Part shown: one piece after another, positions 1 through 22,956 of the stretch
Position numbering within the stretch: the first letter of the stretch is position 1
Layout: each line of letters begins with the position of its first letter
NCBI RefSeq assembly: GCF_041886205.1
Contig: NZ_CP169029.1
DNA: 64,000 nucleotides
Direction: 5' to 3' (one strand)
Source of the DNA: Escherichia coli
Lineage (GTDB): Bacteria > Pseudomonadota > Gammaproteobacteria > Enterobacterales > Enterobacteriaceae
The notes under the pieces: model-generated
The model's input: only the letters and a program-made list of their open reading frames with translations
What the model was told of the DNA's origin: nothing
Database searches by the model: none
Position numbers and translations under genes: made by a program

Positions 1-148
1 GATCGCGCCCATACAGCCACTCCAGCGCGTGGTCTATCTGCCGGGCGTTGTCATCCAGCCCACAAAGGGTCGTTTCTGCCGCTTCGCCAAGAATTAATCG
101 CCAGCGTTGTAGCTCACGGGTGGTCAGAAGATCGTTCAGTTCAGACAT
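1..148 (-). CDS. yehP: First 49 codons of a YehP-like protein, the expected vWA partner of the MoxR-type ATPase. The gene runs off the left edge.
   Basis: Too short for the ORF track. The reverse-strand ATG at 148-146 reads MSELNDLLTTRELQRWRLILGEAAETTLCGLDDNARQIDHALEWLYGRD... with no stop before position 1. The start overlaps the yehM stop by 8 nt. The name rests on recalled yehLMPQ synteny; the vWA motifs lie outside the window. Confidence 0.6.
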   Translation of the reverse strand, partial: MSELNDLLTTRELQRWRLILGEAAETTLCGLDDNARQIDHALEWLYGRD

Positions 149-2420
149 GGAAAACTCCCCAGTGTTGCAGCGATGCCAGTGCCTGCTGTTCGAGTTGTTG
201 ATGATGTGCAATGGCTTGCGGTGGACAATGCAACGGTATTTGCAGCGCCGAAACGGGAAGTTGCGCCAGTTGATAATGCTCAAGCACCTGATGCGCCAGC
301 GTCCCGCGTTCTCGTGGTGGTAGCCAGGCCATCGCCGCGCGTAAATCGGGCAGGGCATTGATAAAATCGGCATCACTCAGTTGATTTAAATGACTGCTGA
401 AACCGGCGATAAATGCCGGCTGACAAGCCAGTTGATGACGGGCTAATGCCAGCAAACCGTGCAGCGCCTCGCCGGATTGGGCCGGGGATAACTGCGTCAG
501 CATTGTCAGCGCCGCTTCGGCACTAGCGTTGGGATGTTCCAGACGCATCAGTGCGCCAAGAGTCGCGCCGCGATCCAGCGCCGGGGCATGAATCGCCTGA
601 CTGCGGCGCTCCAGTAAGGCTACCGCCGCAGAAAGCGAAACGCCGGATAAGTTAACGCCGCTATGTAGATCGCGCAGGATATGGCAAAGCGCTTGCCAGC
701 TATGCAGGTGAGCGTGAAACTCCTTTTCATCCGGTCTGCCGTTGGATTCACACAGCCACAGCGTGCGATCGATAGCCGCGCATAACGTCGTTTGTAATAT
801 CTGCGCGCCTTGCATACCGCTAATTTCATCCAGCCGCCATAAGGCATATAGCACTTCCAGCGCCTGGCCCATTTCGGCAAATTGATTTTCCTGGGCGATT
901 AATAATGTGAGTTGTTCCAGTAATTGCTCACTAAAGCTCGCCAGGCCCGCTAACGCCGCCTGGCTAAGACATGCGGTAATGCTGCCGATTCCACCCGCGT
1001 CCAGCATATCGGCTTCTAATTTATTGCGTGCGGCTTCCTGGAGTGTTGCACCAAAGCAGGCGGCCTCAATCAATGCCGCATGCTGGCTAAGCGGGCGGGT
1101 TAATTTCCAGCGTTCTTCACCGTTGCCTGCAAGTGTCAGTGTACTTCCCTGCTGGCGTAAAATCCCTGGGATCTCCAGTATTGCCAGCCGATGTAACACC
1201 TGACTTTGCGCTAGTCCATTGGGGTTAAAGCGATTTAAGGTAAGCTGCGCCGGAAGAGAGATTCCGGTACGTTCCAGTTCGCAGGTGACATCTTTTGGCA
1301 GAGGCGGTTGTGGCGTGGAGGGGGCAAGTTTACCGAATCCGTCACCCGCTAATGTGTCTATCAACGTTAGCAGAATCGGATCGGTATCGGGATGAATAAC
1401 TCCGCGATAGCTCCACGGCAACGGCGCGTTCAAGGCTTCTTTAATCAGCGAGCCTGCTATGGCATCCAGCCAGTCAGTGCGTAACGGTAGTGTATGACCG
1501 CGCAACTGTGCCAGTGCCATTGCATGCAGATGTGCGGCAGCCATATCAGCGGTAGAAGCGGGCAATTTGTGCTGGCGCAAACGGGTGAGAACCGTTTTTA
1601 GCAGTTGTTCTCCCGCCTGCTGTAAGCCCCACTGCCAGCACCAGTTTTGCCAGACCGGAGCAGGCATTCCGGAAAGGTATCCTGCCAGCACATCAAGGCG
1701 CTTTTCGCTGTATGGCGTGAGATAACAACCTGTAACGGCATCATCCTGTGAGGGCAATTCTGGCTTGTTAATTTCCTGCGGGCATTCGCGCCACATTTTT
1801 GCCAGTGCCGGAGCGTGCCAGCCACCGCAGACGACTAACACGTCGCCATTGTTTTGCAGCATCGCCCATCCAATCCAGCGGGCCATAAAGGCTTCGCGCT
1901 GACGATTGAGAGCATCTCCGGGGGAATCGCCCCGCAGTTGGGCAAAATAGTGCGCCAGCGCAGAGGGTAATGCAGTTTGCTGGCTTTCATCTTCGAATAA
2001 GTGATCCCACAGGGTGTCGCTGTTATCCATGCGGGTGGCACGCAGCAGCAAGGCCTGGCTTTCCTCTTGCGTATCAGGCGAATCGTCCTCTTCTTCACTC
2101 TGCGCCCAGCAAGGCAAATCGATGAAGTAAGTTTGTGCCTGAATACGACGTGCGGCTTGTAGCGCCTGCCACTCCGGCGAAAATTCAGCAAATGGCGTCC
2201 AGGCACCGCGCCCGGGGGCCGTACCGTCCTGATACTGGCAATAACTGTAAATAGCTACCGGAAGCTGGTGGGCTAAAAACAGTTCGTCTACCCGGTCATT
2301 AAAATCAGCCGGGCCTTCAATCAACACGTATCGTGGCCGCTGGCTTTCGATTAACGATTTCACCAGCCGGGCGCTGGCCGGGCTATGATGCCGGATGCCG
2401 ACAATTAACGGCTCGCTCAT
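141..2420 (-). CDS. yehM: YehM-like large protein of unknown function (759 aa)
   Basis: ORF 141..2588. I place the start at ATG 2420 (MSEPLIVGIRHHSPASARLV...), 10 nt after the yehL stop, because the longer in-frame extension overlaps yehL. No catalytic motif is recognisable by eye. It is tightly coupled to yehP. Confidence 0.85.
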   Translation of the reverse strand: MSEPLIVGIRHHSPASARLVKSLIESQRPRYVLIEGPADFNDRVDELFLAHQLPVAIYSYCQYQDGTAPGRGAWTPFAEFSPEWQALQAARRIQAQTYFIDLPCWAQSEEEDDSPDTQEESQALLLRATRMDNSDTLWDHLFEDESQQTALPSALAHYFAQLRGDSPGDALNRQREAFMARWIGWAMLQNNGDVLVVCGGWHAPALAKMWRECPQEINKPELPSQDDAVTGCYLTPYSEKRLDVLAGYLSGMPAPVWQNWCWQWGLQQAGEQLLKTVLTRLRQHKLPASTADMAAAHLHAMALAQLRGHTLPLRTDWLDAIAGSLIKEALNAPLPWSYRGVIHPDTDPILLTLIDTLAGDGFGKLAPSTPQPPLPKDVTCELERTGISLPAQLTLNRFNPNGLAQSQVLHRLAILEIPGILRQQGSTLTLAGNGEERWKLTRPLSQHAALIEAACFGATLQEAARNKLEADMLDAGGIGSITACLSQAALAGLASFSEQLLEQLTLLIAQENQFAEMGQALEVLYALWRLDEISGMQGAQILQTTLCAAIDRTLWLCESNGRPDEKEFHAHLHSWQALCHILRDLHSGVNLSGVSLSAAVALLERRSQAIHAPALDRGATLGALMRLEHPNASAEAALTMLTQLSPAQSGEALHGLLALARHQLACQPAFIAGFSSHLNQLSDADFINALPDLRAAMAWLPPRERGTLAHQVLEHYQLAQLPVSALQIPLHCPPQAIAHHQQLEQQALASLQHWGVFHV

Positions 2421-3519: not shown

Positions 3520-3625
3520 ATATTCATCCCTGAAATGTATTAATGAAATAAACGATATTTTACGCGCAATAAATGTTTGGCGCATTAGTTGTTTGAGCGA
3601 AAAATATCTGGAAAGCAGATCACAG

Positions 3626-3656
3626 TAAATAAAAAAACCTGCTGGTGAGGCAGGTT
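3626..3656 (-). terminator. Rho-independent terminator ending the molR-like/yehI/yehK transcript
   Basis: Stem AACCTGC (3636-3642) / GCAGGTT (3650-3656) with a 7-nt loop. On the minus strand it is followed by TTTTTTTATTT. It lies about 170 nt after the yehK stop and upstream of yehL. Confidence 0.8.
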
Positions 3657-3825
3657 CTTTTATTTACTATTTTCAGGCCTAACACCACAGCCTGTGCAAC
3701 ATCGTGTTCCAACGAACGAATTATAACCACGGCTGGACCCCGTTGCAATTAAGATAATGAGATTTATAATCCAGACCGTTGGGACGTTGCGCCGGATCGG
3801 ACCAATTTGAATTATTTAGAGTATA

Positions 3826-4143
3826 TTATTCTATTTCTTGGTTGAATATATTCTGTAGTTCACGATTAAAAATTGCTATTACAGTTTCAGGTGATTCACC
3901 TCGTAATTTCCGCTCATCAATACACTCATCTCTTATATAAATCAACGCATCATTTATTAGCGGGTCAGCATCTTCTCGATCACGTTGATGAAATGTTGGA
4001 TGTAGCCGGAATCGCTCCAGTCGATAGACGGAACCTGTAAATAATTCAGAGCATTTATGGATCTCAAGTCTGAAGGAAAACGGATCTTCAGGTACAGGGA
4101 CCTCATAATCGTAAATAGCAACCAGCTCTTTTTGCACGATCAT
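3826..4143 (-). CDS. yehK: Small acidic protein of unknown function (105 aa)
   Basis: ORF 3826..4143. Its position between yehI and yehL matches recalled K-12 yehK (105 aa). Coding sequence is AT-rich and shows no recognisable motif. Confidence 0.8.
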   Translation of the reverse strand: MIVQKELVAIYDYEVPVPEDPFSFRLEIHKCSELFTGSVYRLERFRLHPTFHQRDREDADPLINDALIYIRDECIDERKLRGESPETVIAIFNRELQNIFNQEIE

Positions 4144-4202
4144 CGCTTTCCCGTTGGTAAGTCGTGTTGAAAACGGGCAGTCGCATCACTGCCCGTTGTG
4201 TT

Positions 4203-7200
4203 TTAATGGAAAATGACGTCGGGTGCGCTTAACGCCTCACTCAAATCAAACACATCAAGTGCGGCAAAAGTGACGGATTTATTGTCACGGTACACCCGAA
4301 GAGAACGGAAGCTCATCAGCGCTTTGCTATCAGCACTGTAGTAGTTAAAACCGGGTGAAAACTTAAGGACCAGCCGGTACTCACCTAAGTCATAGACAAA
4401 TGCGTCCTCATAGCCTGACTCCCAGCCTTTGTATCGCATTCCCATAAGCTGCCCAACGGTAGCGGATTTACCTTCCCAGCGAGTCAGGCTGTTACTGGTT
4501 GACTCGTCAGGTGTGAGCAGCACCGTGCGGCGCGACAACTGGCGAAAAGGCGGCATAATTTCGTAATCGGCAAAAAGCTGTGCAAATTCACTGCGCATTT
4601 CTGCTGTCATTTCTAACGGGTGGGCAATGCCAATCAGAGCGTCCGCAGGCAGGTCAATGGGCTCATCTTGTGCATTGCAGAATTCCCCCTCTGCGGCCAC
4701 ACGAAAGGTGTTGAGTAAACGACGTGGTTCATTTGCCGGATAAACCCCCCATATTAATCGCTGGGTAACCAGGCGGGTAAAGGGATGATTAACAAAAAGA
4801 GAATGAAAATCTGCCAGCGACCAGCGTCGGGTGGTGCGTAGGGCAGTTTCAAGACGCGGGAGCAGGTTTTTGCTCACCTGAGTGGCATCTTTTTTTAGCC
4901 CTTTTAGTCGGGCCAGTGCCTCGGGCGCTTTCAGTTGATCGTCATCGGCGCGCAACCGGGGAACACTTTTCTGGCGAACGTTTTGTTGATCGTAGATAAC
5001 CGGGTTGAGGTTTTCATCGAAGCGAACGGTAAACTGCCGGGGACCAAAATCAAAAATCAACGCCTGCGGATCATCAAGACCCAGTGTTGGGACTAATCTG
5101 TCCGCTAACTCTTCCTGGCTTAGCCCGCGATTTTCTGCGACCACCTGAAGAAATTCCGCTGCGTTTTCACGTAATGAAGAGGATTTCGCCCGTTGTGATA
5201 CATGATGCAGCTGTATCAGCGCCATATCATTATTCATCAGGGTGAGTATATTCAGACCACTGACAGCACGGGCAGATTTGCCTTCTTGTGGCCAAGCGAG
5301 GATCTGTGTTGTTAGATCCCGTGCCGTGCTTTCGTCACCAAAGAGACTTAACGCCAGAAATGCCCAGTTGTCTTTTGCGGGGGCACCAGCTTGTTGCCAT
5401 GCGGTGAAGAGATCCCAGGCAAAAGCTGCCAGCGTTTGCGGCTGGCAGAACGTTTTCAGTTGTTCCAGCCCGCTATAAAAACGTCCCCCTTGGGTAAAGC
5501 GCAGCATTTCGCCAATAATTTCCAGAGCGTCATCGGTAACAGGTTGATTATTAGTGATAAGGCGCGGCCTGGACCACATTTGCGGATGCCAGAAATCAGG
5601 GGCTTTTGGAATGCGTGCCGGGTAAATCTCTATTGGACTCTGTTTAAGTAATTGTTCCAGGGCAGGCCATACATCAGCGCGATCCCAGCGGTTTGCCACG
5701 GTTTGTAGTAATACGCCATGTCCCTGTTCGTAAAGTAAACGCAGGGCAAGTAATGCAGCTTCGCTATTATCGCTGGATTTAGTGAAGACAAGAGGGATAA
5801 GTGCAGTAGCCGTATGTTCCGGCCATTGTAAAATCCACTGGCGAGCCAGATCACGCTGCGCCGCGAAACGTCGCCAGACGCGGGCAACAGGCAGCGCCAG
5901 TTCTGTTGCGCCGAAATGAATCAGCAGCGGAAATATCTCTTGTGGATGTCGGGCAAAGGCGGTGTTTAATCCAGGCAAAGCATCGGTAGCCAGCACACTT
6001 AACAGATATTCCACCCCAGTGTAATGAAAATCAGCATCGACAATTTGTTGCCAGCACGATACCGCCATTTCGCGCGGCATCTGCGCGATAAGGTACAGAT
6101 TCCAAATCCCCCAACGCTTTTCATTACCATAGTAAAATTCGTGCTGAAAAGTTCGCCACCCTTCCATCAACGCAATGCAATCTTGTGCCAGTAATGCTTT
6201 GGTGGCTTCTTCACGATACTGTTTAGATTTGGCCTGATGCGCGTGATAAGTACGCAATAGTCCTATTGATGTGTATTCTTGCAGTTGCTGAGCATCAAAG
6301 GCATCCAACTGTCCATTAAGAAGATGCTTATTAAATTCCAGGCTATGAACGTCAAAACCTAATTCCCGCAAGAAGGTATCCGCCCCTCTCTTAGCAATAC
6401 GTTCGTCAAAAGACATGGCGCTAAAATGGTCAATTGCAGTTTGCTGTTCCGGCGTCCAGTGTTTATTCGGCGACCTGTACGTTTGCGGTGCAAGCGTAAG
6501 ATCAGGCAGCGAAAAGTGAGGTATGGAAGTCTTTTTCTTCCTCCCACGCCATGGTGGTGAAACGAGGATTTCAGGCATTTGGCTGTTATCGGTACTATCA
6601 ATAACCGGTTTGGGCGGTGCCAATAAATAACTATTCAGTACTGCCCGGGCTTGAGTACTTAACCACTGCATCACCTCTTCTGCCAGTTGTGGCTGCGATG
6701 CCATCAGCGTTTGTAACAGCGTACGCCAGTATTCATCTCGAGCTTTTTGCTGGGCAGGCAGCTTTTTGTCTTCGATGATTGGATAACCAGGGCGGGCTGG
6801 TGGTTCTTTTAACGCCAACAGTTCTGCCAGTGCCGCGAGCGTCGCGTGGGGGAAGTTTTTACTGTATTTAGCCACACGTTGCAGGCTGGGTTTGTTTTTA
6901 TCAGCCACCAGTAGCAAGGTGCGGATGACCTGCGGATGGTTAATTTGTACCAACAGACTGCCGCAATCTTCTTTATGGGCATACATCGCGAGGCGCGGAA
7001 TGGCTGCCAGTCCTTGTTCGCGCAAAAGGGCGGCGCAGGCCGCGTAGCCGAAGTGGTTTTCATGCGACATGTAGCTGGCTTCGCGATCGCTAAATATATC
7101 CTGACTCCAGTAGTGATCGAGTTTCCTCACCGCTGTGGGGTCATTAGCAACAACTTTTAGCCACTCCTTAGAATGATAATGAGTCCGTGGGCATTCAAGG

Positions 7201-7850
7201 CCTATCAACTCATTGGCGATTTCTGGTTTTTCCGGGAGGATCAGCGCAATAAAAGGGCGGCGAACTTTGGTTATTCCTGGCAGTGCGGCAATGAGTTTGT
7301 CGGCGCAACGCTGCCAGCAGCTTTCCTCTGCCAGAGAGAGATGCTTACGCAGTCGGAGATCGAATTCGTTATAGGTTTCTGATCGATAACCATAGCCATA
7401 GTCCTCGTTCTGATACTGCAATGTCACTACCAGAGGATCACTCTCATAACACCGCGCAATAAACTGGCGTGCAATCACCACCTCAGTCGCATATTCCAGT
7501 CCCTCTTGTTGGACGATTTCGTCGAGCAACTGTTGGCTGTCATTTTGCGCGATACAGGCTAGTGCCGCCATTGTGCGGGCCGGGACTGAGGGTTTGTGTT
7601 CGCCGATCAAGTTGATGGCCTGCGTAATGGCGGACTGCCACTCCAGTGAAAAATTTTCATAACGCCAGACAATGTTTTTTTTCTTCTCAGCTTTTTGTAG
7701 CAATTCATCACCCAGTGTCTGAATGATGCTTTCAGTGATAACAGGCACCGGTTCGCCCGGCCATTTGCGATGACTGAGTGGTGTTTTGCCTTTTTTATAT
7801 TTCAGTTCCAGTTGGGCGTTATCCGCCAGCCACGGTAATTCCTTGTCCAT
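4203..7850 (-). CDS. yehI: DUF4132-family giant protein lacking a WGR domain (1215 aa)
   Basis: ORF 4203..7850. It is a paralogue of the two upstream genes along its whole length (for example LPWLADNAQ, HLSLAEESCWQRCADKLIAALP, LLPEKPEIA, FDFGPRQFTVRFDENL, FADYEIMPPFRQL). It begins directly at the segment that follows the WGR domain in its paralogues. A 9-nt spacer with AGGAAAG separates it from the upstream stop. Confidence 0.9.
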   Translation of the reverse strand: MDKELPWLADNAQLELKYKKGKTPLSHRKWPGEPVPVITESIIQTLGDELLQKAEKKKNIVWRYENFSLEWQSAITQAINLIGEHKPSVPARTMAALACIAQNDSQQLLDEIVQQEGLEYATEVVIARQFIARCYESDPLVVTLQYQNEDYGYGYRSETYNEFDLRLRKHLSLAEESCWQRCADKLIAALPGITKVRRPFIALILPEKPEIANELIGLECPRTHYHSKEWLKVVANDPTAVRKLDHYWSQDIFSDREASYMSHENHFGYAACAALLREQGLAAIPRLAMYAHKEDCGSLLVQINHPQVIRTLLLVADKNKPSLQRVAKYSKNFPHATLAALAELLALKEPPARPGYPIIEDKKLPAQQKARDEYWRTLLQTLMASQPQLAEEVMQWLSTQARAVLNSYLLAPPKPVIDSTDNSQMPEILVSPPWRGRKKKTSIPHFSLPDLTLAPQTYRSPNKHWTPEQQTAIDHFSAMSFDERIAKRGADTFLRELGFDVHSLEFNKHLLNGQLDAFDAQQLQEYTSIGLLRTYHAHQAKSKQYREEATKALLAQDCIALMEGWRTFQHEFYYGNEKRWGIWNLYLIAQMPREMAVSCWQQIVDADFHYTGVEYLLSVLATDALPGLNTAFARHPQEIFPLLIHFGATELALPVARVWRRFAAQRDLARQWILQWPEHTATALIPLVFTKSSDNSEAALLALRLLYEQGHGVLLQTVANRWDRADVWPALEQLLKQSPIEIYPARIPKAPDFWHPQMWSRPRLITNNQPVTDDALEIIGEMLRFTQGGRFYSGLEQLKTFCQPQTLAAFAWDLFTAWQQAGAPAKDNWAFLALSLFGDESTARDLTTQILAWPQEGKSARAVSGLNILTLMNNDMALIQLHHVSQRAKSSSLRENAAEFLQVVAENRGLSQEELADRLVPTLGLDDPQALIFDFGPRQFTVRFDENLNPVIYDQQNVRQKSVPRLRADDDQLKAPEALARLKGLKKDATQVSKNLLPRLETALRTTRRWSLADFHSLFVNHPFTRLVTQRLIWGVYPANEPRRLLNTFRVAAEGEFCNAQDEPIDLPADALIGIAHPLEMTAEMRSEFAQLFADYEIMPPFRQLSRRTVLLTPDESTSNSLTRWEGKSATVGQLMGMRYKGWESGYEDAFVYDLGEYRLVLKFSPGFNYYSADSKALMSFRSLRVYRDNKSVTFAALDVFDLSEALSAPDVIFH

Positions 7851-7859
7851 GCTCTTTCC

Positions 7860-10800
7860 TTATTCAAACAGGGCTTCAATATCGTTAATTAGCTCGCTGG
7901 CGGTGATGGCATCGAGTACGGAGAACTGCGCTTCCTGTGTTGAATTACTCCCCCAGCCATAGCTTTCCGCTTTGCCTTCCCATAACCACAGCTTGCTTAA
8001 GAGCTGCTCAGCGCTAAGTTCGGCTGGTGACATACCCACCGCAAAACCTTCGTCGATTTCCATGATTAACGACCAGCGACCCAAAGGTTTGATCATCCAT
8101 CCGATCCAGCCTCCATCCTGTGGTTCGCCCTTTATCCAGCCTTTATTCGCCAGCCCCATGACCCGACCACTCGGGCATTTTCTGCCTGCCCAGCGGGTCA
8201 GTTCACTGGCATTGCGCTCGGCTTCTGTCAGGGCGTAGCTGTTACGGTCGAGCTGGCGGAACGGTGGTAGCAGTTCGTAGTCGGCAAAAAGCTGACCAAA
8301 GGCGGCAGCATCCGTTGGTGATATTTCCAGAACGTGAGGAGTGCCGATAGAGATATCGCCTTCCGGCAGGGTGAAAAGATCATCGTCAGCGGTGCTGTAG
8401 CTGTTATCTTCTGCTACGCGAAAGCAAGCCAGTAGCTGGTTTTCGGCGCTATAAACGCCCCAAATCAGACGGCGGGTTAAGTGACGAACCAGCGGATGCT
8501 CAACCAGGAAGAGCTGGAAGTTTTCCAGCGACCAGCGGCGGCGCAGGCACATGGCGGATTCCAGCCTTGCTACCTGCTGGGCGGCGACGGTACGCGCATC
8601 TTTTTTCAGCAGTTTGTAGCGGTTAACAGCATCGTTCGCCTGTGATTCATCATCGCTTTTGTTTGGTTTGGGCAGGTCTTTCAGACGGCTGCCGGAAGCG
8701 TCACGCACAAACGGTTTTAAGGTTTCATCAAAGCTGACGGTGAACTGGCGTGGGCCGAAATCCAGCAGCAACGAACCGTTATCATCCAGACCGAGATCTG
8801 GTGCTAACCGATCTTCAAGCTCCGCCACCGTGAGTTCGCGGCTCTCGGCAATATCGGCAATTTTCTCTTTTGCCCGCTCCTGTAAAGCTTTGAATTTCAG
8901 TTTCTGAGCAATGCCGTTAAGCTGCATCAGAGCAATATCACTACCGATAGCGGCGAGGATATCAAGCCCGACGGTGGCGCGTTTATGCTGGGATTCGCCA
9001 GGCCAGGCGCGGATTAATGGCGTCAGTTTGCGGGCGGTGTCATCGTTACCGAGAACGCCTAACGCAGTGAACGCCCAACTCTCTTTCGACGGCGCGCCAG
9101 CGGTCTGCCAGGCGGTAAACAGATCCCAGGCAAATTCAGCCAGTGAGTCGGCGGTACAGGCGTCTTTCACCTGTAATATTCCCGGATACAGAACCTCTTC
9201 CTGAGGGAAGCGGAGCATTTCACCGAGGTGGAGGAGGGCTCTATCTGGCAGTGATTGGGCGTTTGCTTTTAATACCGGGCGCGTCCAGAGCGATGGTTGA
9301 TAAAAGGCCGGAAGAGTGGGGATTTTTGTCGGGTGATTATCTAAGGGATCGAGCGCAAGCAGAGCGTTCACCGCATCGGTTACTTCCGGCTGGTTATAAC
9401 GTCGGGCGATTTCTTGCAGTAATGGCTGATGACCGTTTTCGGTAAGCATACGCAAGGCAGCGCGGGCGTTATCCTGTGCTTCACCGGCTTTGCCGAGCGC
9501 CGCAGGCAGCAGGCCGGTAAGGGCATGTTCCGGGTATTTCAACAGCCAGCTACGGGCGTTTTCGCGTAGCGTTTTGAGTTTGTTGAAGGCACGGGCAATC
9601 AGTGGCGCTAATTCGATAGCCGCAAAATATTGTGCTACAGGCAGCGCTTCTTGCGGATAGCGAGATGCTGAGTGGATAAAACCTGTTAAACCAGCAAGTC
9701 GAAGATGCAACATTACTTGTGTTGCACCTGTATGTGGTTCTTTACTAAGGATGTTCCACATCTCGATAGCTTTATTAATGGGTAAAACATGGAGTGAAGA
9801 AAGATTCCATTCGCCCTGATAAGGGGAGTTATAGGACTTAAAAGCATCAATCAGCGCTGAATAATCTTCACGCTGCAAGGCATCCAGTGCTATTTCTGGA
9901 ACATCAATATAGCCTCTATGTTTGTTCCAATCCCAGCGGTTGAATCCCAGGGAGGTCAGAAAAGCTTTTTCTCCCTCAGCTTGCTGATGAGGTTGCCAGT
10001 TATGCTGCACTTGCAGTGTTTTGCTTTTTGTTTCATTTATTGTACAGAAGGATTCTAGGGATAATGGTGCTAAATCCAGCACCGAAATCGTCGATTTTTT
10101 CTTTTTAGCCAGCCAGGGCGGTGAGACTAATACGGCAGGCAGCATATCAGCGTTCGCATAAACTGAAGGTTGTGTCAGTTGTTGCTGGCATGACTTAAGA
10201 ACGGTAACTGCCGGGGCAGATAGCCAGGAGATTACCCGTTCTGCTAATGTTGGTTGTGAGATAAGCATTGTCATTAGCATCATGCGCCAGCGCTTTTCAT
10301 CTTTTTTTGCCAGAAGTTCTGCTAATGCCGCCAGCGCTGCATGTGGAAAGCGAACGAAAGCCTTTGTCATGCGATCGTGGCAACGCTTTCCCTGCTCGCT
10401 TGCATGGATAAGTAGTGTAAGTGCCTGCGGGTGGTTGATATGCATCAACACTTCACCACATGTGTCACCAGCAGCGTAAGGAGCAAAACGGGCCAGCGCA
10501 GCGACACCTTGCTCCTTGAGTATCGTTGCGCACCAGATTTTACCTCCGTAATAATCATCAAATACCTGCCCAGGCTGTCCTGGATAGTATTTTCCCAGTT
10601 CTGCCAATACCTGCTCGTCAGCGGCCGTCAGTTTTAGCCATTCCAGCGCATATAACCCTTTTTGTCCGCAAAGATGTCTGGCAATCTCATGAGCTATTTC
10701 TGGTTTTTCCGGCAACAATAGTGCAACCAGCGGCTGGTGCCAGGTGGGCATGTTTCCGAGAGCGGCAATCAGTTTGTCGGCGCAGCGCTGCCATACATCG

Positions 10801-11618
10801 TCATTTGCAAGTGAGAGATGCTTACGCAGGCGCATTTCAACCGAAGCGAAGCGTAACAGATAGCCAGGCTGCCTGTTATCCGGGGTAACCGTAATGAGAT
10901 GGGCATCATAATCCCAGTCGAAGCGGATGAATTGCAATGCAATGACAACCTCAGTGGCATATTCCAGACCACCTTCCTGGACAATTTGATCCATTAACTC
11001 TTCATGATCGTTACGATTGAAGCCTTGTTCCAGCGCAACCAGTACCGCCAGTACCATCGGAGGTAGCGTGGTGCTAATTGGCGAGTCGATAAGGCCTACT
11101 GCTTGTGTAATTGCCTGCTGCCAGTCGAGTGAACAGGTACTGTAATCGAAGGTGAGCACCTTTTTAAAACGCCGGTGAGTATTCGCGGCAACGGTGCGTA
11201 GCAGGGTTAATTCATCCTCCTGCTGCACCGGATCGCCAGGCCAGCGTCGATGACTGAGTGTGGTTGGCGCAATCTCTGTCGGTAACATGATTTGGGCACC
11301 GTCTGCCAGCCAGGGGAGGAGGTCACCAGCAAATGCTGGTTTGTCTTGTGGCAAAGGGGTAATTTCAGGGCATTCAATAACCTGGCCGGGTGCAAATGTC
11401 GCTGTCATCACGGATACTTCTTCTACGTAGCCCTTTTTTGTTTTCTCCGCAATCAGCTTCAGCTCCGCTTTTTCCGCCGCCGCAGCATCTGCAAAGCTTT
11501 TTACCTGACTTTGCCCGTTACTGCCGACTTTACCCCAGTTAATATGCAGCTCGTTTCCCTGCTGCTCCACCGCCCAGAATTTATGTGATTTTTCGTCCTG
11601 ATAAATATAGGTTTTCAT
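7860..11618 (-). CDS. Intact WGR-domain + DUF4132 giant protein (1252 aa), molR-like
   Basis: ORF 7860..11618. The N-terminus MKTYIYQDEKSHKFWAVEQQGNELHINWGKVGSNGQSQVKSF...KKGY is a WGR-type module with a WGK variant of the WGR motif. The remainder is collinear with yehI. A 12-nt spacer with AAGGA precedes the ATG. Confidence 0.9.
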   Translation of the reverse strand: MKTYIYQDEKSHKFWAVEQQGNELHINWGKVGSNGQSQVKSFADAAAAEKAELKLIAEKTKKGYVEEVSVMTATFAPGQVIECPEITPLPQDKPAFAGDLLPWLADGAQIMLPTEIAPTTLSHRRWPGDPVQQEDELTLLRTVAANTHRRFKKVLTFDYSTCSLDWQQAITQAVGLIDSPISTTLPPMVLAVLVALEQGFNRNDHEELMDQIVQEGGLEYATEVVIALQFIRFDWDYDAHLITVTPDNRQPGYLLRFASVEMRLRKHLSLANDDVWQRCADKLIAALGNMPTWHQPLVALLLPEKPEIAHEIARHLCGQKGLYALEWLKLTAADEQVLAELGKYYPGQPGQVFDDYYGGKIWCATILKEQGVAALARFAPYAAGDTCGEVLMHINHPQALTLLIHASEQGKRCHDRMTKAFVRFPHAALAALAELLAKKDEKRWRMMLMTMLISQPTLAERVISWLSAPAVTVLKSCQQQLTQPSVYANADMLPAVLVSPPWLAKKKKSTISVLDLAPLSLESFCTINETKSKTLQVQHNWQPHQQAEGEKAFLTSLGFNRWDWNKHRGYIDVPEIALDALQREDYSALIDAFKSYNSPYQGEWNLSSLHVLPINKAIEMWNILSKEPHTGATQVMLHLRLAGLTGFIHSASRYPQEALPVAQYFAAIELAPLIARAFNKLKTLRENARSWLLKYPEHALTGLLPAALGKAGEAQDNARAALRMLTENGHQPLLQEIARRYNQPEVTDAVNALLALDPLDNHPTKIPTLPAFYQPSLWTRPVLKANAQSLPDRALLHLGEMLRFPQEEVLYPGILQVKDACTADSLAEFAWDLFTAWQTAGAPSKESWAFTALGVLGNDDTARKLTPLIRAWPGESQHKRATVGLDILAAIGSDIALMQLNGIAQKLKFKALQERAKEKIADIAESRELTVAELEDRLAPDLGLDDNGSLLLDFGPRQFTVSFDETLKPFVRDASGSRLKDLPKPNKSDDESQANDAVNRYKLLKKDARTVAAQQVARLESAMCLRRRWSLENFQLFLVEHPLVRHLTRRLIWGVYSAENQLLACFRVAEDNSYSTADDDLFTLPEGDISIGTPHVLEISPTDAAAFGQLFADYELLPPFRQLDRNSYALTEAERNASELTRWAGRKCPSGRVMGLANKGWIKGEPQDGGWIGWMIKPLGRWSLIMEIDEGFAVGMSPAELSAEQLLSKLWLWEGKAESYGWGSNSTQEAQFSVLDAITASELINDIEALFE

Positions 11619-11630
11619 TGCTAAATCCTT

Positions 11631-14600
11631 TTAATCAAACAGTGATTCAATATCGTTAATCAGCTCGCTGGCGGTGATGTCGTCGAGCACGGAGAAGGGA
11701 TAAACCGATTTGCGCGGCGTCAGTTTGCACAACTGAATGTGCTCAATTTTTTGGCTATCGCTGATTTCGGTGACGGGCAATCCAACGCAGAAGCCTGGTG
11801 TCACACTCAGTTCGACGTAGCCATCATCCACAGATTTATAAAATGAGTAATAGCCGCCACCATCCAGCACATCGCCCCGTTGCCAGCCTTTATTCATCAG
11901 CCCGGCGACGCGCCCACTCGCTGCCTGGCGACCAGCCCAGCGCTGCAAATCGCTGCTGCTTTTTTCTGTCTCAGAGAGCTGAGACCAGGGGCGATCAAGT
12001 TGACTGAATGGTGGCAATAGTTCGTAGTCAGAGAACAGTTGTGCAAATTCAGCAGCCTGCGGGGCCGGGATTTCCAGTACATGCGGGATACCGATACTGC
12101 CCTGCGCAAGGGTTAACGGGTTATCCTGACCGTCGCTAAAACTGCCATCCTCCGCCACGCGGAAACAGGAAATAAGCTGATTATCAGCGTCATAAATGCC
12201 CCACATCAGACGTTGGGTGATATGACGAACCAGGGGATGCTCAACCAGAAACAGGCGGAACTGTTCTGCAGTCCAGCGGCGACGCTGACACATGGCGGCT
12301 TCCAGACGCGAAATCTGTTGTGCAGCTACCGTGCGGACATCTTTTTTCAACAACTTGTAGCGATTTACCGCTTCCTCAGCCAGCGTTTCATCATCGCTTT
12401 TGTTCGGTTTGGGCAGATCTTTCAGACGGTTGCCGGAAGCTTCGCGCACAAACGGTTTTAAGGATTCATCAAAGCTGACGGTGAACAGGCGTGGGCCGAA
12501 ATCCAGCAGTAGTGAGCCGTTATCATCCAGACCGAGATCGGGGGCTAACCGGTCTTCCATCTCTGCGACGGTGAGCTGGCGGCTTTCGGCAATCTGGGCG
12601 ATTTTAGTTCTAGCCTGATCCTGCAAGGCTTTAAATTTTAGCTTTTGCGCAATACCGTTAAGTTGCATCAGGGCGATATCGCTGCCGATAGCAGCAAGAA
12701 TATCCAGCCCGACAGTGGCGCGTTTATGCTGAGATTCCCCCGGCCATGCGCGGATGAGCGGGGTGAGTTTGCGGGCGGTGTCATCGTTACCCAGAATCCC
12801 CAGTGCGGTAAATGCCCAGTTATCTTTGGCTGACCCGCTTGCAATCTCCCAGCTCAAGAAGAGATCCCAGGCGAAATCGGCAAGAGACTGCGGGGTACAG
12901 GCCTCGATTACCTGTGTTATCCCCGGGTAAAGGGTGGCTTCGCGGGGAAAAGAGAGCATGGTGCACAGTTGCAGGATAGCTGAATCCGGAAGTGCCTTGC
13001 CGTTACTGCGCAGAAGCGGGCGGTGCCATACTTCAGGGGTACACCAGGCGGGGAGTTTAGCGATTTTCTGCGGAAAATTATCGAGGGGGTCGCTGTTAAG
13101 AACATCTAACAAACCCGTAAGCACTTCTGCCTGATTATAGCGGTGGGCAATTTCTTCCATTAACGGCTGATGCCCATGATGAGCCAGATAGCGAATTGCC
13201 GTAGCGGCGTCTTCACGCTCACTACCTGCTTTTCCCAGCACGGAAGGCAGCAGGCCCGTAATGGCATGTTCCGGATAGGTTAACAACCAACGTTCAGCAA
13301 CATCACGTACAGATTTAAGCTGACGAAAGGCGCGAGCCATTAAGGGGGCTACTTCGGTTGCGCCAAAACGTGCCGCTAAAGGAATGGCTTCCTGAGGTAC
13401 GACTAAGGCGCGACGCAGCAAGCCGGGCAATGTCGGAAGACCGTAATATTCCACTACTTCACATGCGTTAATCAGATGTAGGTGAGTCAGTGCGTTCCAT
13501 ATTTTCAGTGCTTTATTTTCTGATAACTGAAGCAATACCGACACATTGACAAGGATATGACTTGCCCACCGAGGTTTATCCCAGATCTTTAATAAAGCTT
13601 CGTAATTGTCCTGCTCGAAAAAATCAATGGCAGCCTGAGGTATACCCCAACCAAGCTCTTCGCAATGGAAGTTCAACAAATCCAGGATATCTTTCGCTGA
13701 TGGGGATGGCGCAGATGGCTCAGTCAGATTTTTTGTTGCGGGGATAGATTCAGGGGGGGAAGAGGTAATACCCGGAGAGTGAGGTTGATACCAGCAATCT
13801 TTTTCTTTTTTTCCAACCATGAAGGGGCGATCAATATACTGGGTAATTCATTCTTATGAGCAATTTTTTCGATGGACATAAGCTGAGGAAAATAACTAAA
13901 TAAAATTTGTTGCTGTTTTTCGTCAAGCCAGGGAAGCGTTTTATGTAAGGCTTGCGCATTACCCAAGATGATGCGCTGCAGTAAACGATAATAGTGAGAG
14001 TTATTTGTGTAATTTAAGGCTTTTGTTAATGCATAAAGTGCAGCTTCAGGATGTAAATTTGTTGCGTGTTCCACTTCACTGATACATTCTTCTTTTATTA
14101 ATATATTAATGGCGTCAGGATGATTAACTTGTGTAATTAGATTTTTAACTGAATAACTATCCTTTATCCATGGCTGAAGAAGTGGAAGAGCTTTTACCCC
14201 TCGTTCACGCAGTAATGTCGCAGTGCATTTTTCCGCCGTCTGCCAGTCGTTATAGCGCTTAAGTTGGTTAAGATTCATCAATTCATTGAGTGCCTGCGGA
14301 TCTGTGGCAACGATATCCAACCATTCCATTTCTGGGTAATTAGCACATTGCACTAAGTCAAAGACAATTTGATTAGCAATTTCAGGTTGTTCAGGCAAAA
14401 GAAAACCTATTAAAGGGCGTTTACGTGGAGACAGGGAAGGCAACGCTTGAGTAAGCTTTTTCATGCACCGTTGCCATGTTTTTTCATCAATACGCGAGAG
14501 ATGATTTCGCAAGTGAAAATCTACAGTGCTGAAGCCGAATTCAAAACGTTGTTCTGATATTGTGTTACTTAGAATAAGCGTTGGTACGCAATTTTTTGTA

Positions 14601-15370
14601 AAAAAATTGTATCCCATGCGAACATACAAAAGGCATTTATCTAAAGCTTCACAATTTCCCGGATCTTGATTTTGATCATCTGATATCTGAATTTGCTGTA
14701 ATAGCAAGACTAATTCGGTCGCGTATTCTACCCCATGCTGTTGCGCCAGATAATCAAAAAGATCATTAGCGCTATCGCTATCTTGCATAAGAAACTTGAC
14801 CAGCAAAAAGAATGCATTGGAGAAAATCGAACCGTCTATATTTTTCTGCTGAACGCGCATGATTGCTTCATCCCGGCCTCGTTGCCATTCCGGGCGGCAG
14901 TCACTCACATCAAAATGCTGTAATTGTGCAAGAAAATAGTATTCCTCATATTTGTTTTCCCATAAGAGTGACCATAACGAGATATCTTTAGCAAACGTCC
15001 TGACACTGTCGGCTGGGAATTTCCTACTGCTAAATACTCTCTTTGTTTCGAGAATGATTGGTTCAAGGTCCGCAATCCACGGTGGTGTGTCGACATCAGT
15101 AATAATTGGATGTTGTTCGCTATCATCAGCTGTGGTGGGAACAGTTATCAGCATGTTTATATCGTCAGTCGATTTTACATACCCCTTCTTCACCTTCTCC
15201 GCAATCAACTTCAGCTCCGCTTTTTCCGCCGTTGCAGCATCCGCAAAACTTTTTACCTGGCTTTGCCCTTGGGTGCCAACTTTTCCCCAACTGATATGCA
15301 ACTCGTTTCCCTGTTGCTCCACCGCCCAGAATTTATGTGATTTTTCGTCCTGATAGATAAAGCGTCTCAT
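11631..15370 (-). pseudogene. molR: WGR + DUF4132 paralogue with a broken reading frame (molR/yehH-like)
   Basis: Two ORFs, 15370->13724 (548 codons, WGR N-terminus MRRFIYQDEKSHKFWAVEQQGNELHISWGKVG...) and 13820->11631 (729 codons), overlap by 97 nt in different frames. Joined, they are collinear with the 1252-aa neighbour. The downstream frame is -1 relative to the upstream frame. The gene symbol is tentative. Confidence 0.75.
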
Positions 15371-15468: not shown

Positions 15469-15501
15469 TATAAAGAAAAGGCGCTGTCGATGCAGCGCCT
15501 T
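15469..15501 (-). terminator. Rho-independent terminator of metG
   Basis: Stem AAGGCGCTG (15478-15486) / CAGCGCCTT (15493-15501). On the minus strand it is followed by TTCTTTAT. It lies 10 nt after the metG stop. Confidence 0.75.
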
Positions 15502-15510: not shown

Positions 15511-17544
15511 TTATTTCACCTGATGACCCGGTTTAGCACCGGCATCCGGGCTTAGCAGGAAGATATCTTTCCCGCCAGGACCAGCAGCCATTACCATGCC
15601 TTCGGAGATACCAAAGCGCATTTTACGCGGCGCCAGGTTAGCCACCATAATGGTGTGACGACCAATCAGAGCCTGCGGATCCGGGTAAGCAGAACGAATG
15701 CCGGAGAAAACATTACGTTTTTCACCGCCGAGATCCAGTGTCAGTCGCAGCAGTTTGTCAGAACCTTCAACAAACTCTGCATTTTCAATCAGCGCCACGC
15801 GCAGGTCAACTTTAGCGAAGTCGTCAAAGGTGATGGTTTCCTGAATCGGATCGTCTGCCAGCGGGCCAGTAACTGTCGCGGCAGCTGCTTTCACTTCTTC
15901 TTTAGAGGCTTCCACCAGTGCTTCAACCTGCTTCATATCGATGCGGTTATACAGCGCCTTGAACGGATTCACTTTGTGGCCCAGCAGCGGTTGCTGGATA
16001 CCATCCCAGGTCAGTTCCGTATTGAGGAATGCTTCTGCACGCTCGGTCAGTTTCGGCAGTACCGGCTTCAGGTAAGTCATCAGCACGCGGAACAGGTTTA
16101 TGCCCATTGAGCAAATTGCCTGCAGGTCGGCATCGCGGCCTTCCTGTTTCGCCACAACCCACGGAGCCTGTTCATCGACATAGCGGTTAGCCAGATCAGC
16201 CAGCGCCATGATTTCGCGCACGGCTTTACCAAATTCGCGGCTTTCCCACGCTTCACCAATCACTTCAGCGGCATCAGTGAAGGTTTTGTACAACTGCGGG
16301 TCAGCCAGTTCGCTTGCCAGCACACCGTCAAAACGCTTGTTGATAAAGCCCGCATTACGAGAGGCCAGGTTAACCACTTTGTTAACGATATCGGCATTCA
16401 CGCGCTGAACGAAATCTTCCAGGTTGAGATCGATATCATCAATGCGCGAAGAGAGTTTCGCAGTGTAGTAGTAACGCAGGCTGTCAGCGTCAAAATGATT
16501 CAGCCAGGTGCTGGCTTTAATAAAGGTACCGCGAGACTTAGACATCTTCGCGCCGTTCACCGTCACATAGCCATGAACAAACAGGTTGGTCGGCTTGCGG
16601 AAGTTGCTGCCTTCCAGCATTGCTGGCCAGAACAGACTGTGGAAGTAAACAATATCTTTACCGATGAAGTGGTACAGCTCGGCGGTGGAGTCTTTCTTCC
16701 AGTATTCATCGAAGCTTACGCTGTCGCCGCGCTTGTCGCACAGATTCTTGAAAGAACCCATATAGCCAATCGGCGCATCTAGCCAGACGTAGAAATATTT
16801 ACCCGGCGCGTTCGGAATTTCAAAACCGAAGTACGGCGCGTCGCGGGAGATATCCCACTGTTGCAGGCCGGATTCAAACCACTCCTGCATTTTATTTGCC
16901 ACCTGCTCCTGCAACGCACCGCTGCGGGTCCATGCCTGCAACATTTCGCTGAAAGAGGGCAGATCAAAGAAGAAGTGTTCAGAATCACGCATTACCGGCG
17001 TAGCGCCAGAAACCACCGATTTCGGCTCGATCAATTCAGTCGGGCTGTAGGTCGCGCCGCAAACTTCGCAGTTATCGCCGTATTGATCCGGGGATTTACA
17101 TTTCGGGCAGGTGCCTTTCACAAAACGGTCCGGCAGGAACATGCCTTTTTCCGGATCGTACAGCTGAGAGATGGTGCGGTTTTTAATAAAACCGTTTTCT
17201 TTCAAGCGAGTATAGATAAGCTCAGACAACTGGCGGTTCTCTTCGCTGTGCGTCGAGTGATAGTTGTCATAGCTGATGTTAAAGCCTGCGAAATCAGTCT
17301 GATGCTCCTGACTCATTTCGCCAATCATCTGCTCCGGGGTGATACCAAGCTGCTGAGCTTTCAGCATGATTGGCGTACCGTGGGCATCGTCGGCGCAGAT
17401 GAAGTTGACCTCGTGGCCGCGCATTCGCTGGTAACGGACCCAGACATCAGCCTGGATGTGCTCCAGCATATGGCCGAGGTGGATTGAGCCGTTAGCGTAC
17501 GGCAGTGCGCACGTCACCAGAATTTTCTTCGCGACTTGAGTCAT
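15511..17544 (-). CDS. metG: Methionyl-tRNA synthetase (677 aa)
   Basis: ORF 15511..17553. The start is taken at [25 protein letters not shown] (HIGH-type motif). The KMSKS motif is present (GAKMSKSRG), as are the zinc knuckles CPKC...CEVC. Confidence 0.97.
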
Positions 17545-17675
17545 AGTAGGCATTACTTCTTAATAGTGAAAAGGGGTTAGATAGTACCAAATGGGAAAAT
17601 GTTAAGTAAGTACTTCTCTATATTCTTCAGGTAAACTATCAGCTGATGGTTTATCTATACAAAAAAGGAGTCGGG

Positions 17676-22941: not shown

Positions 22942-22956
22942 GGTAATGACTCCAAC

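What the first reader, a model, noticed from the sequence alone, without database searches (positions are those of the whole stretch)
4203..15370. Three tandem DUF4132 paralogues with different domain architectures, one more than I recall for K-12
Three collinear genes of about 3.7 kb are separated by only 12 nt and 9 nt, each spacer carrying a Shine-Dalgarno sequence. Copy 1 (15370..11631) is WGR+DUF4132 but frameshifted. Copy 2 (11618..7860) is WGR+DUF4132 and intact. Copy 3 (yehI) starts exactly where the WGR module ends in the others. My recollection of K-12 is only two units between metG and yehK (the molR pseudogene plus yehI). If so, copy number is polymorphic, presumably through unequal recombination between paralogues. 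Tandem expansion, contraction and partial decay are unusual for housekeeping genes.
Basis: partly seen in the sequence, partly recalled or inferred. Interest (0 to 1): 0.65.

Follow-up and report, generated by a model that had tools for sequence, protein, structure and literature searches.

The report
Shrunken tandem array of WGR-DUF4132 genes
Between metG and the yehLMPQ operon, E. coli strains carry two to five tandem copies of a 1,250-residue protein gene of unknown function, and this window holds a rare three-copy version that arose from a larger array by two precise unequal crossovers.

Summary
Three collinear genes lie on the minus strand: 11631-15370, 7860-11618 and 4203-7850. The spacers are 12 and 9 nt and each carries a Shine-Dalgarno sequence. 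Copy 1 is WGR+DUF4132 with a 1-bp frameshift, copy 2 is intact, and copy 3 (yehI type) lacks WGR. K-12 has two units.

Copy number is polymorphic. About 69% of 5,426 complete E. coli genomes have two units and about 30% have three. About ten have four or five; GF4-3 has five, in the order D-A-C-B-Y.

The units are old paralogues of about 50% nucleotide identity, not recent duplicates. Each clade has a Klebsiella counterpart.

The window's array is a contraction. Copy 1 is a chimera: nt 1-137 match unit D of strain 6EVA exactly, the rest matches its unit A, and the last ~200 nt match unit C. 6EVA (D-A-B-Y) is the four-unit intermediate. In 19 WGR units read, the first unit always carries a D-type 5' end, so K-12 molR is probably a similar chimera.

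The frameshift is private to this sequence.

Function is unknown. The proteins are alpha-solenoids, and the array always sits beside a conserved MoxR/DUF5682/vWA/SWIM operon. Tandem arrays occur in several other genera. A role as a variable adaptor is inference.

The parts
15478..15501 (-). Terminator-like hairpin after metG. It marks the upstream edge of the array's own transcription unit.
   Evidence: 9-bp stem with 6 GC pairs and a T-rich tail. Sequence shown.
11631..15370 (-). Unit 1 (copy 1): a chimeric D/A/C WGR+DUF4132 gene of 3740 nt, frameshifted.
15234..15370 (-). 5' segment of unit 1 (gene nt 1-137), derived from a D-type first unit. The D x A crossover lies in gene nt 130-137 (window 15234-15241).
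   Evidence: 0 differences from 6EVA unit D up to nt 137. All 16 differences from 6EVA unit A fall in nt 5-129. One search shows the same against GF4-3 and PT62.
15167..15352 (-). WGR domain coding region of unit 1.
   Evidence: PF05406, aa 7-68, E=3e-18.
13748..13752 (-). Site of the 1-bp deletion (TGG to TG after a C7 run) that splits unit 1 into ORFs 13724-15370 and 11631-13820.
   Evidence: The gene is intact in 2017.06.05CC, wlxctx60, 6EVA and PT62.
11834..12611 (-). Interval (gene nt 2760-3537) that contains the A x C crossover. Downstream of it, unit 1 matches MB53 unit C rather than unit A.
   Evidence: 0 mismatches to MB53 C from nt ~2760 to the end, and 4 diagnostic sites against PT62/MB53 A in nt 3537-3698; the MB53 C|B junction is 100% identical to window 11319-11930.
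11619..11630 (-). 12-nt spacer AAGGATTTAGCA with a Shine-Dalgarno sequence.
7860..11618 (-). Unit 2 (copy 2): intact B-type WGR+DUF4132 gene, 1252 aa.
   Evidence: AF2 model of aa 95-1252 has pLDDT 85.7.
7851..7859 (-). 9-nt spacer GGAAAGAGC with a Shine-Dalgarno sequence.
4203..7850 (-). Unit 3 (copy 3): intact Y-type (yehI) gene, 1215 aa, with no WGR.
5751..6651 (-). Allelic cassette inside unit 3 (codons ~400-700). It is 45-73% nt identical to K-12 yehI, whereas the rest of the gene is 92-100% identical.
   Evidence: dN 0.44-0.82 with dS saturated.
4172..4197 (.). 10-bp hairpin between the unit 3 stop and the yehK start.
3826..4143 (-). yehK, 105 aa, found only in Escherichia.
3720..3748 (-). 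Promoter-like site (10 of 12 consensus matches) upstream of yehL.
   Evidence: H-NS binds this intergenic region in K-12 (PMC3686432).
2431..3519 (-). yehL, a MoxR-type AAA+ ATPase and the first gene of the conserved core.
   Evidence: AAA_5, E=1.6e-34.
141..2420 (-). yehM (DUF5682). yehP (vWA) and yehQ (SWIM) follow beyond the window edge.

Best explanation
What it is (shown). The interval is one allele of a polymorphic tandem array of old paralogous genes. Each gene encodes WGR, an alpha-solenoid and DUF4132. The array lies between metG and yehK-yehLMPQ in essentially all E. coli. The fullest form seen is five units in the order D-A-C-B-Y (strain GF4-3).

How the window's form arose (shown). 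The window's three units are (D/A/C chimera)-B-Y. They derive from such an array by two unequal homologous crossovers, each of which removed exactly one repeat period.
- One crossover joined the near-identical 3' ~780 nt of A and C. It removed C and gave the four-unit form still present in strains 6EVA and USMARC-49610.
- The other joined the WGR-coding 5' ends of D and A at gene nt 130-137. It removed 3,819 bp.
A 1-bp deletion later broke the chimeric gene in this sequence only, or it is a sequencing error.

A recurrent process (shown for 19 units). In every WGR unit start read, the unit next to metG carries the D-type start MR[RH]F, and every internal unit starts MKTY. The same kind of WGR crossover therefore probably produced the K-12 two-unit array; molR would be a D-5'/M chimera.

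What the genes do (inferred). The paralogues are non-enzymatic scaffold proteins. The conserved C-terminal ~600 residues would dock to the conserved YehL (MoxR ATPase) / YehM / YehP (vWA) / YehQ (SWIM) machine. The WGR domain and the hypervariable N-terminal half would give each paralogue a different target, possibly a nucleic acid or a nucleic-acid-bound partner. The array would then be a set of interchangeable specificity subunits for one core machine, gained, lost and shuffled by recombination.
For: Array structure:
- Architectures of 14 arrays.
- Painting against the five GF4-3 units.

Crossover evidence:
- Copy 1 is identical to 6EVA D for nt 1-137. It differs from 6EVA A at 16 sites, all in nt 5-129, and then at only 3 sites in the remaining 3,600 nt.
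- The 3' end of copy 1 is identical to MB53 unit C.
- The position rule for the start of the first unit holds in all 19 units read.
- Segment clusters are incongruent.

Census of 5,426 complete genomes:
- A WGR probe gives 7,074 places in 5,419 genomes; in an evenly spaced sample, 19 of 60 genomes have two places.
- The D cassette is in 1,623-1,644 genomes and the M cassette in 3,991.
- The B form of the window is complete in 22 genomes, with about 740 more covering 79% of the probe at 90-95% identity.
- The C cassette is in 5 genomes and the A cassette in 8.

Age of the paralogues:
- Units are 42-57% nt identical to one another, except A/C at 74%.
- In NJ trees, the D, A/C, B/M and Y clades each contain Klebsiella and Escherichia members.
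- Allele pairs have dN/dS of 0.12-0.22, so the units are or recently were under purifying selection.

Functional inference:
- The cluster [DUF4132]n-YehL-YehM-YehP-YehQ is conserved in gamma- and beta-proteobacteria, Mycobacterium, Propionibacteriaceae and Trichlorobacter.
- Tandem arrays also occur in Klebsiella (3 to at least 5), Massilia (6-8), Duganella (3), Pseudoduganella, Deefgea and others.
- The AF2 model shows an alpha-solenoid plus a C-terminal alpha/beta domain with no enzyme-like match.
- Family-wide conservation is confined to the C-terminal half.
Against: - The A x C crossover rests on only 4 diagnostic sites plus the junction identity with MB53. Gene conversion of the 3' end would look the same.
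- The order of the two events is inferred from the existence of 6EVA-type arrays, not dated.
- Units A and C are so rare in E. coli (about 0.15%) that the whole large array could have been introgressed from another Escherichia lineage rather than inherited.
- The functional part has no experimental support. No interaction data exist, there are no PADLOC hits, and no informative structural homologue was found.
- 18 of the 45 units read, and some core genes (yehM in O157, yehL in 6EVA, yehQ in RM14723), are disrupted. The system is therefore dispensable in many lineages.
- The census uses probe counts and a sample of 60 rows, not a per-genome parse.
Confidence: 0.8

Rival explanations
1. Recent tandem duplication. 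The three-unit array arose from a K-12-like two-unit array by duplication of the WGR unit, as the first reader's word 'expansion' suggests.
For: Copy 1 and copy 2 share domain architecture and an 84%-identical WGR segment. Unequal crossing-over can in principle add units.
Against: - Copies 1 and 2 are only 60% nt identical overall and 45-55% in the middle.
- Each belongs to a clade with its own Klebsiella orthologue.
- Copy 1 is a chimera of units that exist separately in 6EVA, PT62 and GF4-3.
- The K-12 unit is a different allele, M, with a middle segment 62% identical to copy 2.
- Among the 13 internal WGR unit starts read, none has a D-type body with an internal-type start, the form a reciprocal duplication would leave.
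Confidence: 0.03
2. Introgression. The A-containing array, and the five-unit arrays, entered E. coli by homologous recombination with DNA from another Escherichia lineage, anchored in metG and the WGR segment. On this view the 'crossover' at nt 130-137 is the end of an imported tract rather than an intrachromosomal deletion.
For: - The A and C cassettes occur in only 8 and 5 of 5,426 genomes.
- An A-type unit (79% aa identity) exists in Escherichia sp. MOD1-EC7003.
- dS is patchy along every unit, which indicates frequent allelic recombination.
- E. whittamii unit 2 is close to the E. coli M allele.
Against: - Both parental sequences occur side by side in one E. coli genome, 6EVA. Its A-B-Y part is 99.8% identical to the window, and its metG spacer is identical. 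An internal deletion needs one event and no donor.
- Introgression would explain where the large array came from. It would not explain the junction itself.
Confidence: 0.12
3. Artefact. The third unit or the frameshift results from assembly or sequencing error.
For: The frameshift is a single-base deletion next to a C7 homopolymer, a typical long-read error context. It is absent from the two otherwise almost identical arrays.
Against: - The units are too divergent (about 50-60%) to be mis-joined.
- The same A-B-Y array is present in two independent complete assemblies and the A-B-Y part in a third.
- The artefact reading can therefore apply only to the frameshift, not to the array.
Confidence: 0.35
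4. Phase-variable contingency locus. Units are switched on and off by slippage in homopolymer tracts.
For: Many units in different strains are frameshifted. The copy 1 lesion lies beside a C7 run.
Against: - The C run is 7 in both the broken and the intact alleles; the change is GG to G.
- The units contain few long runs, at most A8.
- Other disruptions are internal deletions, stop codons and IS or transposon insertions.
Confidence: 0.05

Closest known systems
E. coli K-12 molR pseudogene plus yehI (the same locus)
   Same: Same chromosomal site and the same gene family. Copy 3 is the yehI orthologue at 88% nt identity. The 3' 1,700 nt of molR are 93-99% identical to copy 2.
   Different: K-12 has two units. 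Its WGR unit is the M allele, whose middle segment is about 62% identical to copy 2. K-12 lacks any A-type unit. K-12 yehI carries the alternative middle cassette.
YehL subfamily of MoxR AAA+ ATPases with an adjacent vWA protein (classification cited in PMC3893208), and MoxR-vWA chaperone pairs such as RavA-ViaA, CbbQ-CbbO and NorQ-NorD (the last two from my own knowledge)
   Same: YehL is an AAA_5 MoxR-type ATPase and YehP is a VWA_CoxE protein in the same operon. In the studied pairs, the vWA protein links the ATPase to a client protein that is remodelled.
   Different: No client enzyme is known here. The cluster has three further conserved partners (DUF5682, SWIM, WGR-DUF4132), and one of them is present as a variable multi-copy array.
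MoxR-vWA-centred ternary conflict systems (Pfam bpMoxR family description)
   Same: A MoxR ATPase, a vWA protein and a variable third component. The cluster is patchily distributed across phyla while YehL stays 71-76% identical.
   Different: YehL matches bpMoxR only at 18.6 bits against a cut-off of 27. The third component is a HEAT-like solenoid, not a beta-propeller. No effector domain was recognised and PADLOC gave no hit.
Tandem paralogue clusters shaped by unequal crossing-over, for example plant NLR clusters or bacterial rhs/orphan-module arrays (from my own knowledge)
   Same: Variable copy number, chimeric members with breakpoints in conserved segments, hypervariable recognition-type regions next to conserved regions, and frequent pseudogenes.
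   Different: Here the units are complete cytoplasmic genes with their own Shine-Dalgarno sequences. The array sits at a fixed core-genome site, its paralogues predate the genus, and it is attached to a single conserved operon.

Membership tests
Pfam WGR (PF05406) + DUF4132 (PF13569) proteins ('MolR family') | N-terminal WGR domain above the gathering score. | tested here: met
   copy 1 scores 66.1 bits and copy 2 scores 64.4 bits (cut-off 22). Copy 3 has no WGR.
Pfam WGR (PF05406) + DUF4132 (PF13569) proteins ('MolR family') | C-terminal DUF4132 domain above the gathering score. | tested here: met
   161-175 bits for all three units (cut-off 27).
YehL-type MoxR-vWA gene cluster | An AAA_5 MoxR ATPase gene with a VWA_CoxE gene in the same operon, next to the DUF4132 gene(s). 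| tested here: met
   (AAA_5 E=1.6e-34; VWA_CoxE E=4e-72); the same five-gene set is seen in most of the 72 loci from other genera.
YehL-type MoxR-vWA gene cluster | Physical or functional interaction of DUF4132 proteins with YehL or YehP. | not testable with these tools
   Only conserved gene neighbourhood is available.
Array generated by unequal homologous recombination | A chimeric unit whose two parts match two different parental units, with the switch inside a shared homologous segment. | tested here: met
   the switch falls within gene nt 130-137. Searches agree.
Array generated by unequal homologous recombination | The length change equals an integer number of repeat periods, and the parental arrangement still exists. 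| tested here: met
   6EVA is D-A-B-Y and the window is (D/A)-B-Y. The missing piece is 3807+12 = 3819 bp.
Known anti-phage defence systems (PADLOC-DB 2.0) | Any component matches a defence-system model. | tested here: not met
   no hits for the three units, YehK, YehL or YehM. YehP and YehQ were not scanned.
MoxR-vWA-beta-propeller ternary systems (bpMoxR) | The MoxR component reaches the bpMoxR gathering score. | tested here: not met
   18.6 bits against a cut-off of 27.
Phase-variable contingency genes | On/off switching by length change of a simple repeat inside the gene. | tested here: not met
   the C7 run is unchanged and the lesion is GG to G beside it. Reversibility is not testable here.
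HEAT/ARM-type alpha-solenoid proteins | A long array of antiparallel helix pairs forming a solenoid. | tested here: inconclusive
   The AF2 model is helical over aa ~160-850 of the fragment. Foldseek returns CAND1, karyopherins and PP2A-A, but with TM of about 0.13 and best E=1.2e-4. This is fold class only, with no homology shown.

The most novel reading that the evidence does not exclude
The yeh locus would be an undescribed kind of conflict or surveillance system. A single conserved MoxR-ATPase/vWA/SWIM/DUF5682 machine would be served by a tandem array of interchangeable solenoid 'sensor' paralogues carrying a WGR nucleic-acid-binding head. The hypervariable halves of the paralogues would recognise different invaders or damaged nucleic-acid states. 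Recombination in the conserved WGR and C-terminal segments would continually reshuffle, delete and exchange these specificities. This would resemble NLR gene clusters, but inside a bacterial core genome.
Probability: 0.15. Interest if true: 0.85.

Novelty: new member of a known kind. Interest (0 to 1): 0.5.

Why it matters
The genes are annotated in every E. coli genome, yet I found no paper describing the array. The nearest is an ST131 study that calls it the 'metG/DUF4132/yeh region' and uses it only as a transposon insertion site (PMC9334617).

The locus combines four properties:
- 2 to 5 units in one species;
- allelic divergence down to 77% protein identity within that species;
- paralogue clades shared with Klebsiella;
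- tandem arrays in unrelated genera, always next to the same four-gene MoxR/vWA core.

This marks the DUF4132 component as the variable, probably specificity-giving part of a widespread system of unknown function; the family has about 6,000 clusters at 50% identity. That gives a concrete handle for experiments on the last uncharacterised MoxR system of E. coli.

On a practical level, K-12 is a reduced and partly decayed representative, so work on K-12 alone would miss most of the locus.

Tried and rejected
- **Homopolymer slippage as the cause of the frameshift.** I first read it as C7 against C8. Direct comparison showed the C run unchanged and a G lost beside it.
- **A count of three-unit genomes from coverage of the whole 11.2-kb query.** This gave 6 of 5,426 and was misleading. 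Other three-unit arrays carry a D-type first unit that megablast does not align. A WGR probe and cassette probes replaced it.
- **Defence-system assignment.** PADLOC gave no hits.
- **Sequence search of PDB.** Only the WGR domain matched (2ra8).
- **Foldseek of the 1,158-residue model.** It returned only generic HEAT proteins.
- **Mobile-element origin.** There was no phage match and only a few megaplasmid matches.
- **Positive selection.** Allele pairs give dN/dS of 0.12-0.22, so there is no overall signal. The divergent cassettes are saturated at synonymous sites.
- **Literature searches** on DUF4132, yehI/molR, yehLMPQ and YehL/MoxR found no functional study.
- **Inferring the origin of K-12 molR from its first 130 nt alone** was ambiguous. 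The position rule for unit starts resolved it.

Full report
**1. The observation.** The window is E. coli chromosome. On the minus strand it runs metG (15511-17553), three long genes, yehK (3826-4143), yehL and yehM.

The three genes are 11631-15370 (3,740 nt, split into two ORFs), 7860-11618 (1,252 aa) and 4203-7850 (1,215 aa). The spacers are AAGGATTTAGCA and GGAAAGAGC.

Pfam finds WGR plus DUF4132 in copies 1 and 2, and DUF4132 alone in copy 3. Copy 3 begins at the conserved LPWLAD motif. That is after the WGR domain and a variable linker, not immediately at the WGR end.

The interval differs from strain 2017.06.05CC (NZ_AP027790.1) by three substitutions and one missing base. The missing base is a G of 'TGG' directly after a C7 run. 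The run itself is unchanged. The gene is intact in 2017.06.05CC, wlxctx60, 6EVA and PT62. The frameshift is therefore private to this sequence and could be a sequencing error.

**2. Copy number in E. coli.** K-12 (JM83) has two units, the molR pseudogene and yehI.

Coverage of the whole 11.2-kb query suggested that three units are very rare, at 6 of 5,426 genomes. That count was misleading. Reading individual loci showed other architectures:

| Strain | Array | Units |
|---|---|---|
| XH990 | D-B-Y | 3 |
| GF4-3 | D-A-C-B-Y | 5 |
| MB53 | A (cut by IS1)-C-B-Y | 4 |
| RM14723 | D first, Y last, two mixed middle units | 4 |
| 6EVA | D-A-B-Y | 4 |
| USMARC-49610 | D-A-B-Y | 4 |
| O157:H7 TX 265-1 | D first, Y last | 3 |
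| 06-00048 | C-type first unit, Y last | 3 |
| ST131 strain 4433 | D plus a B unit cut by an IS26 transposon | - |

The ST131 case matches PMC9334617.

A 200-nt WGR probe gives 7,074 places in 5,419 genomes. In an evenly spaced sample, 19 of 60 genomes have two places and 41 have one. About 69% of genomes therefore have two units and about 30% have three. The remainder, about ten genomes, have four or five; the maximum is four WGR units plus Y.

Cassette probes (nt 300-1900 of each type) agree with this:
- D: 1,623-1,644 genomes.
- M, the K-12 type: 3,991 genomes.
- The window's B form: complete in 22 genomes, with about 740 more covering 79% of the probe at 90-95% identity.
- C: 5 genomes.
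- A: 8 genomes.

The window's composition, A-B-Y with no D, is shared by only two complete genomes: 2017.06.05CC and wlxctx60.

**3. The units are old paralogues.** The five GF4-3 units are 42-57% identical in nucleotides. The exception is A/C at 74%, because their last ~1,400 nt are 91-100% identical. The WGR 5' 200 nt are 81-96% identical among D, A, C and B.

Neighbour-joining trees of the proteins show four clades: D, A/C, B/M and Y. Each contains both Klebsiella (oxytoca group) and Escherichia members. The Klebsiella arrays keep the order D, B, Y. The array therefore predates the two genera or moved between them as a block. It is not a recent duplication.

Within E. coli the B/M clade spans 100% down to 77% protein identity. 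E. whittamii unit 2 is close to the E. coli M allele.

Allele pairs have dN/dS of 0.12-0.22, compared with metG 0.02, yehL 0.04 and yehM 0.13. dS jumps between 0 and 0.56 in neighbouring 100-codon blocks, the signature of allelic recombination.

yehI has two allelic forms that differ in a cassette at codons ~400-700. There dN is 0.44-0.82 and dS is saturated. The window carries the rarer-looking 3,648-nt form, as does GF4-3.

**4. How the window's array arose.** Copy 1 is a chimera.
- Against 6EVA unit D it has no difference up to nt 137 and 78 differences in nt 138-300.
- Against 6EVA unit A all 16 differences in the first 300 nt lie in nt 5-129. After that only three differences remain in 3,600 nt, one of them the frameshift.

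A single D x A crossover in gene nt 130-137 (window 15234-15241) therefore explains it, with loss of 3,807+12 = 3,819 bp. The metG spacer is identical in both strains.

At the other end, copy 1 is identical to PT62 and MB53 unit A from nt ~1900 to ~3500. Its last ~200 nt carry four sites that match MB53 unit C instead. The 612-nt junction of copy 1 with copy 2 is 100% identical to the MB53 C|B junction. An A x C crossover within nt 2760-3537 therefore removed unit C. Strains 6EVA and USMARC-49610 show that state with D still present.

A general rule emerged from the 19 WGR unit starts I read.
- The unit next to metG always starts ATGAGAC(G/A)CTTTATC (MR[RH]F), whether its body is D, M (K-12), C (06-00048) or A (window).
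- Every internal WGR unit starts ATGAAAACCTATAT (MKTY). This includes M-like internal units (RM14723 unit 2, E. whittamii unit 2).

K-12 molR is thus itself probably a D-5'/M chimera. The conserved WGR-coding segment appears to be the recurrent crossover site for contraction. I saw no product of the reciprocal expansion.

**5. Decay.** In the 14 arrays read, 18 of 45 units are disrupted by frameshifts, stop codons, internal deletions, IS1, or IS26 transposons. Some core genes are disrupted too: yehM in O157, yehL in 6EVA and yehQ in RM14723. Some of these may be assembly errors. The sample is not random.

**6. What the genes may do.** No experimental function exists. YehL is the type member of one of seven MoxR subfamilies and is uncharacterised (PMC3893208). 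In K-12, H-NS binds upstream of yehL, and yehL/yehM rise in an hns/stpA mutant (PMC3686432).

Gene neighbourhood is the strongest evidence. In 72 loci from species-representative genomes, the set [DUF4132]n-YehL (AAA_5)-YehM (DUF5682)-YehP (VWA_CoxE)-YehQ (SWIM) recurs. It is found in gamma- and beta-proteobacteria, Mycobacterium, Propionibacteriaceae and Trichlorobacter, usually with n=1. In Burkholderia the DUF4132 gene sits after yehQ. YehL is 71-76% identical between E. coli and those distant taxa.

Tandem arrays occur in Klebsiella (3 to at least 5), Massilia (6-8), Duganella (3), Pseudoduganella, Deefgea, Chitinibacter, Variovorax and Acidovorax. The family has 6,003 clusters at 50% identity with E up to 1e-3. 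Most align only to the C-terminal ~600 residues of copy 2.

Structure prediction:
- An AF2 model of copy 2 residues 95-1252 (pLDDT 85.7) is an alpha-solenoid followed by an alpha/beta domain.
- Foldseek finds only generic HEAT proteins at TM ~0.13.
- The C-terminal 314 residues model at pLDDT 92.

No catalytic fold, PADLOC hit or phage copy was found, and only a few megaplasmid copies exist.

My reading, which is inference, is that the conserved C-terminal half docks to the YehLMPQ machine. The WGR head and the variable N-terminal half would set the target, so that an array is a set of alternative adaptor or specificity subunits. A conflict-system role is possible but untested.

**7. Verdict.** Three corrections apply: three units is common, the window's form is a contraction rather than an expansion, and the genes are not housekeeping genes. 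The phenomenon, unequal crossing-over in a tandem paralogue family, is of a known kind. This particular array and its population structure appear undescribed. The attached system is a good candidate for functional study.

Noticed in passing
window 3631-3706 (- strand), in the yehK-yehL spacer 3586-3825: A full-length Rfam match to the OrzO-P antitoxin sRNA family (99.9 bits, gathering score 60). No zor-like small hydrophobic toxin ORF is present in the 240-nt spacer. In O157:H7 this spacer is 1.2 kb and holds the zorO/zorP-orz type I toxin-antitoxin pairs (PMC2887945). Here the sRNA gene looks orphaned.
   Followed up: partly
window 56876-58128: Four tandem SIB RNA (ibs/sib type I toxin-antitoxin) copies with a 328-bp period. 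The closest complete genome has three annotated Ibs toxins at this site. This is a second copy-number-variable tandem array in the same window.
   Followed up: partly
window ~22907-24257 and ~45176-45198: Outside the yeh array the window is not the same strain as its best match, 2017.06.05CC. It has about 1.35 kb in the yehB/yehA fimbrial region that the record lacks. It lacks the ~780-bp ParD/ParE toxin-antitoxin insertion between yegQ and yegP. Identity elsewhere drops to 97.8-99.5%.
   Followed up: no
L048, L071, L074 (Massilia); L010 (Klebsiella sp. MISC125); L052 (Deefgea): Tandem arrays of 5 to 8 DUF4132 genes in front of a single yehL-yehM-yehP-yehQ set. They are larger than anything seen in E. 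coli.
   Followed up: partly
L081 576-2855 (O157:H7 yehM); L086 1-817 (6EVA yehL); L084 10-2009 (RM14723 yehQ): Core genes of the yehLMPQ operon are annotated as pseudogenes in several strains whose arrays are also decayed. This suggests that the whole system is lost together in some lineages.
   Followed up: no
L082 1-11105 (ST131 strain 4433): A multi-resistance transposon with IS26 copies (blaCTX-M-15, blaOXA-1, aac(6')-Ib-cr, aac(3)-IIe) has replaced everything downstream of the first 199 nt of unit 2. This is the TnMB1860 insertion described for ST131 sublineage L1a (PMC9334617).
   Followed up: partly
window 4172-4197: A perfect 10-bp GC-rich hairpin lies between the yehI-type stop codon and yehK. 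It has a short T run on both strands. Its role (attenuator, mRNA end or bidirectional terminator) is unknown.
   Followed up: no
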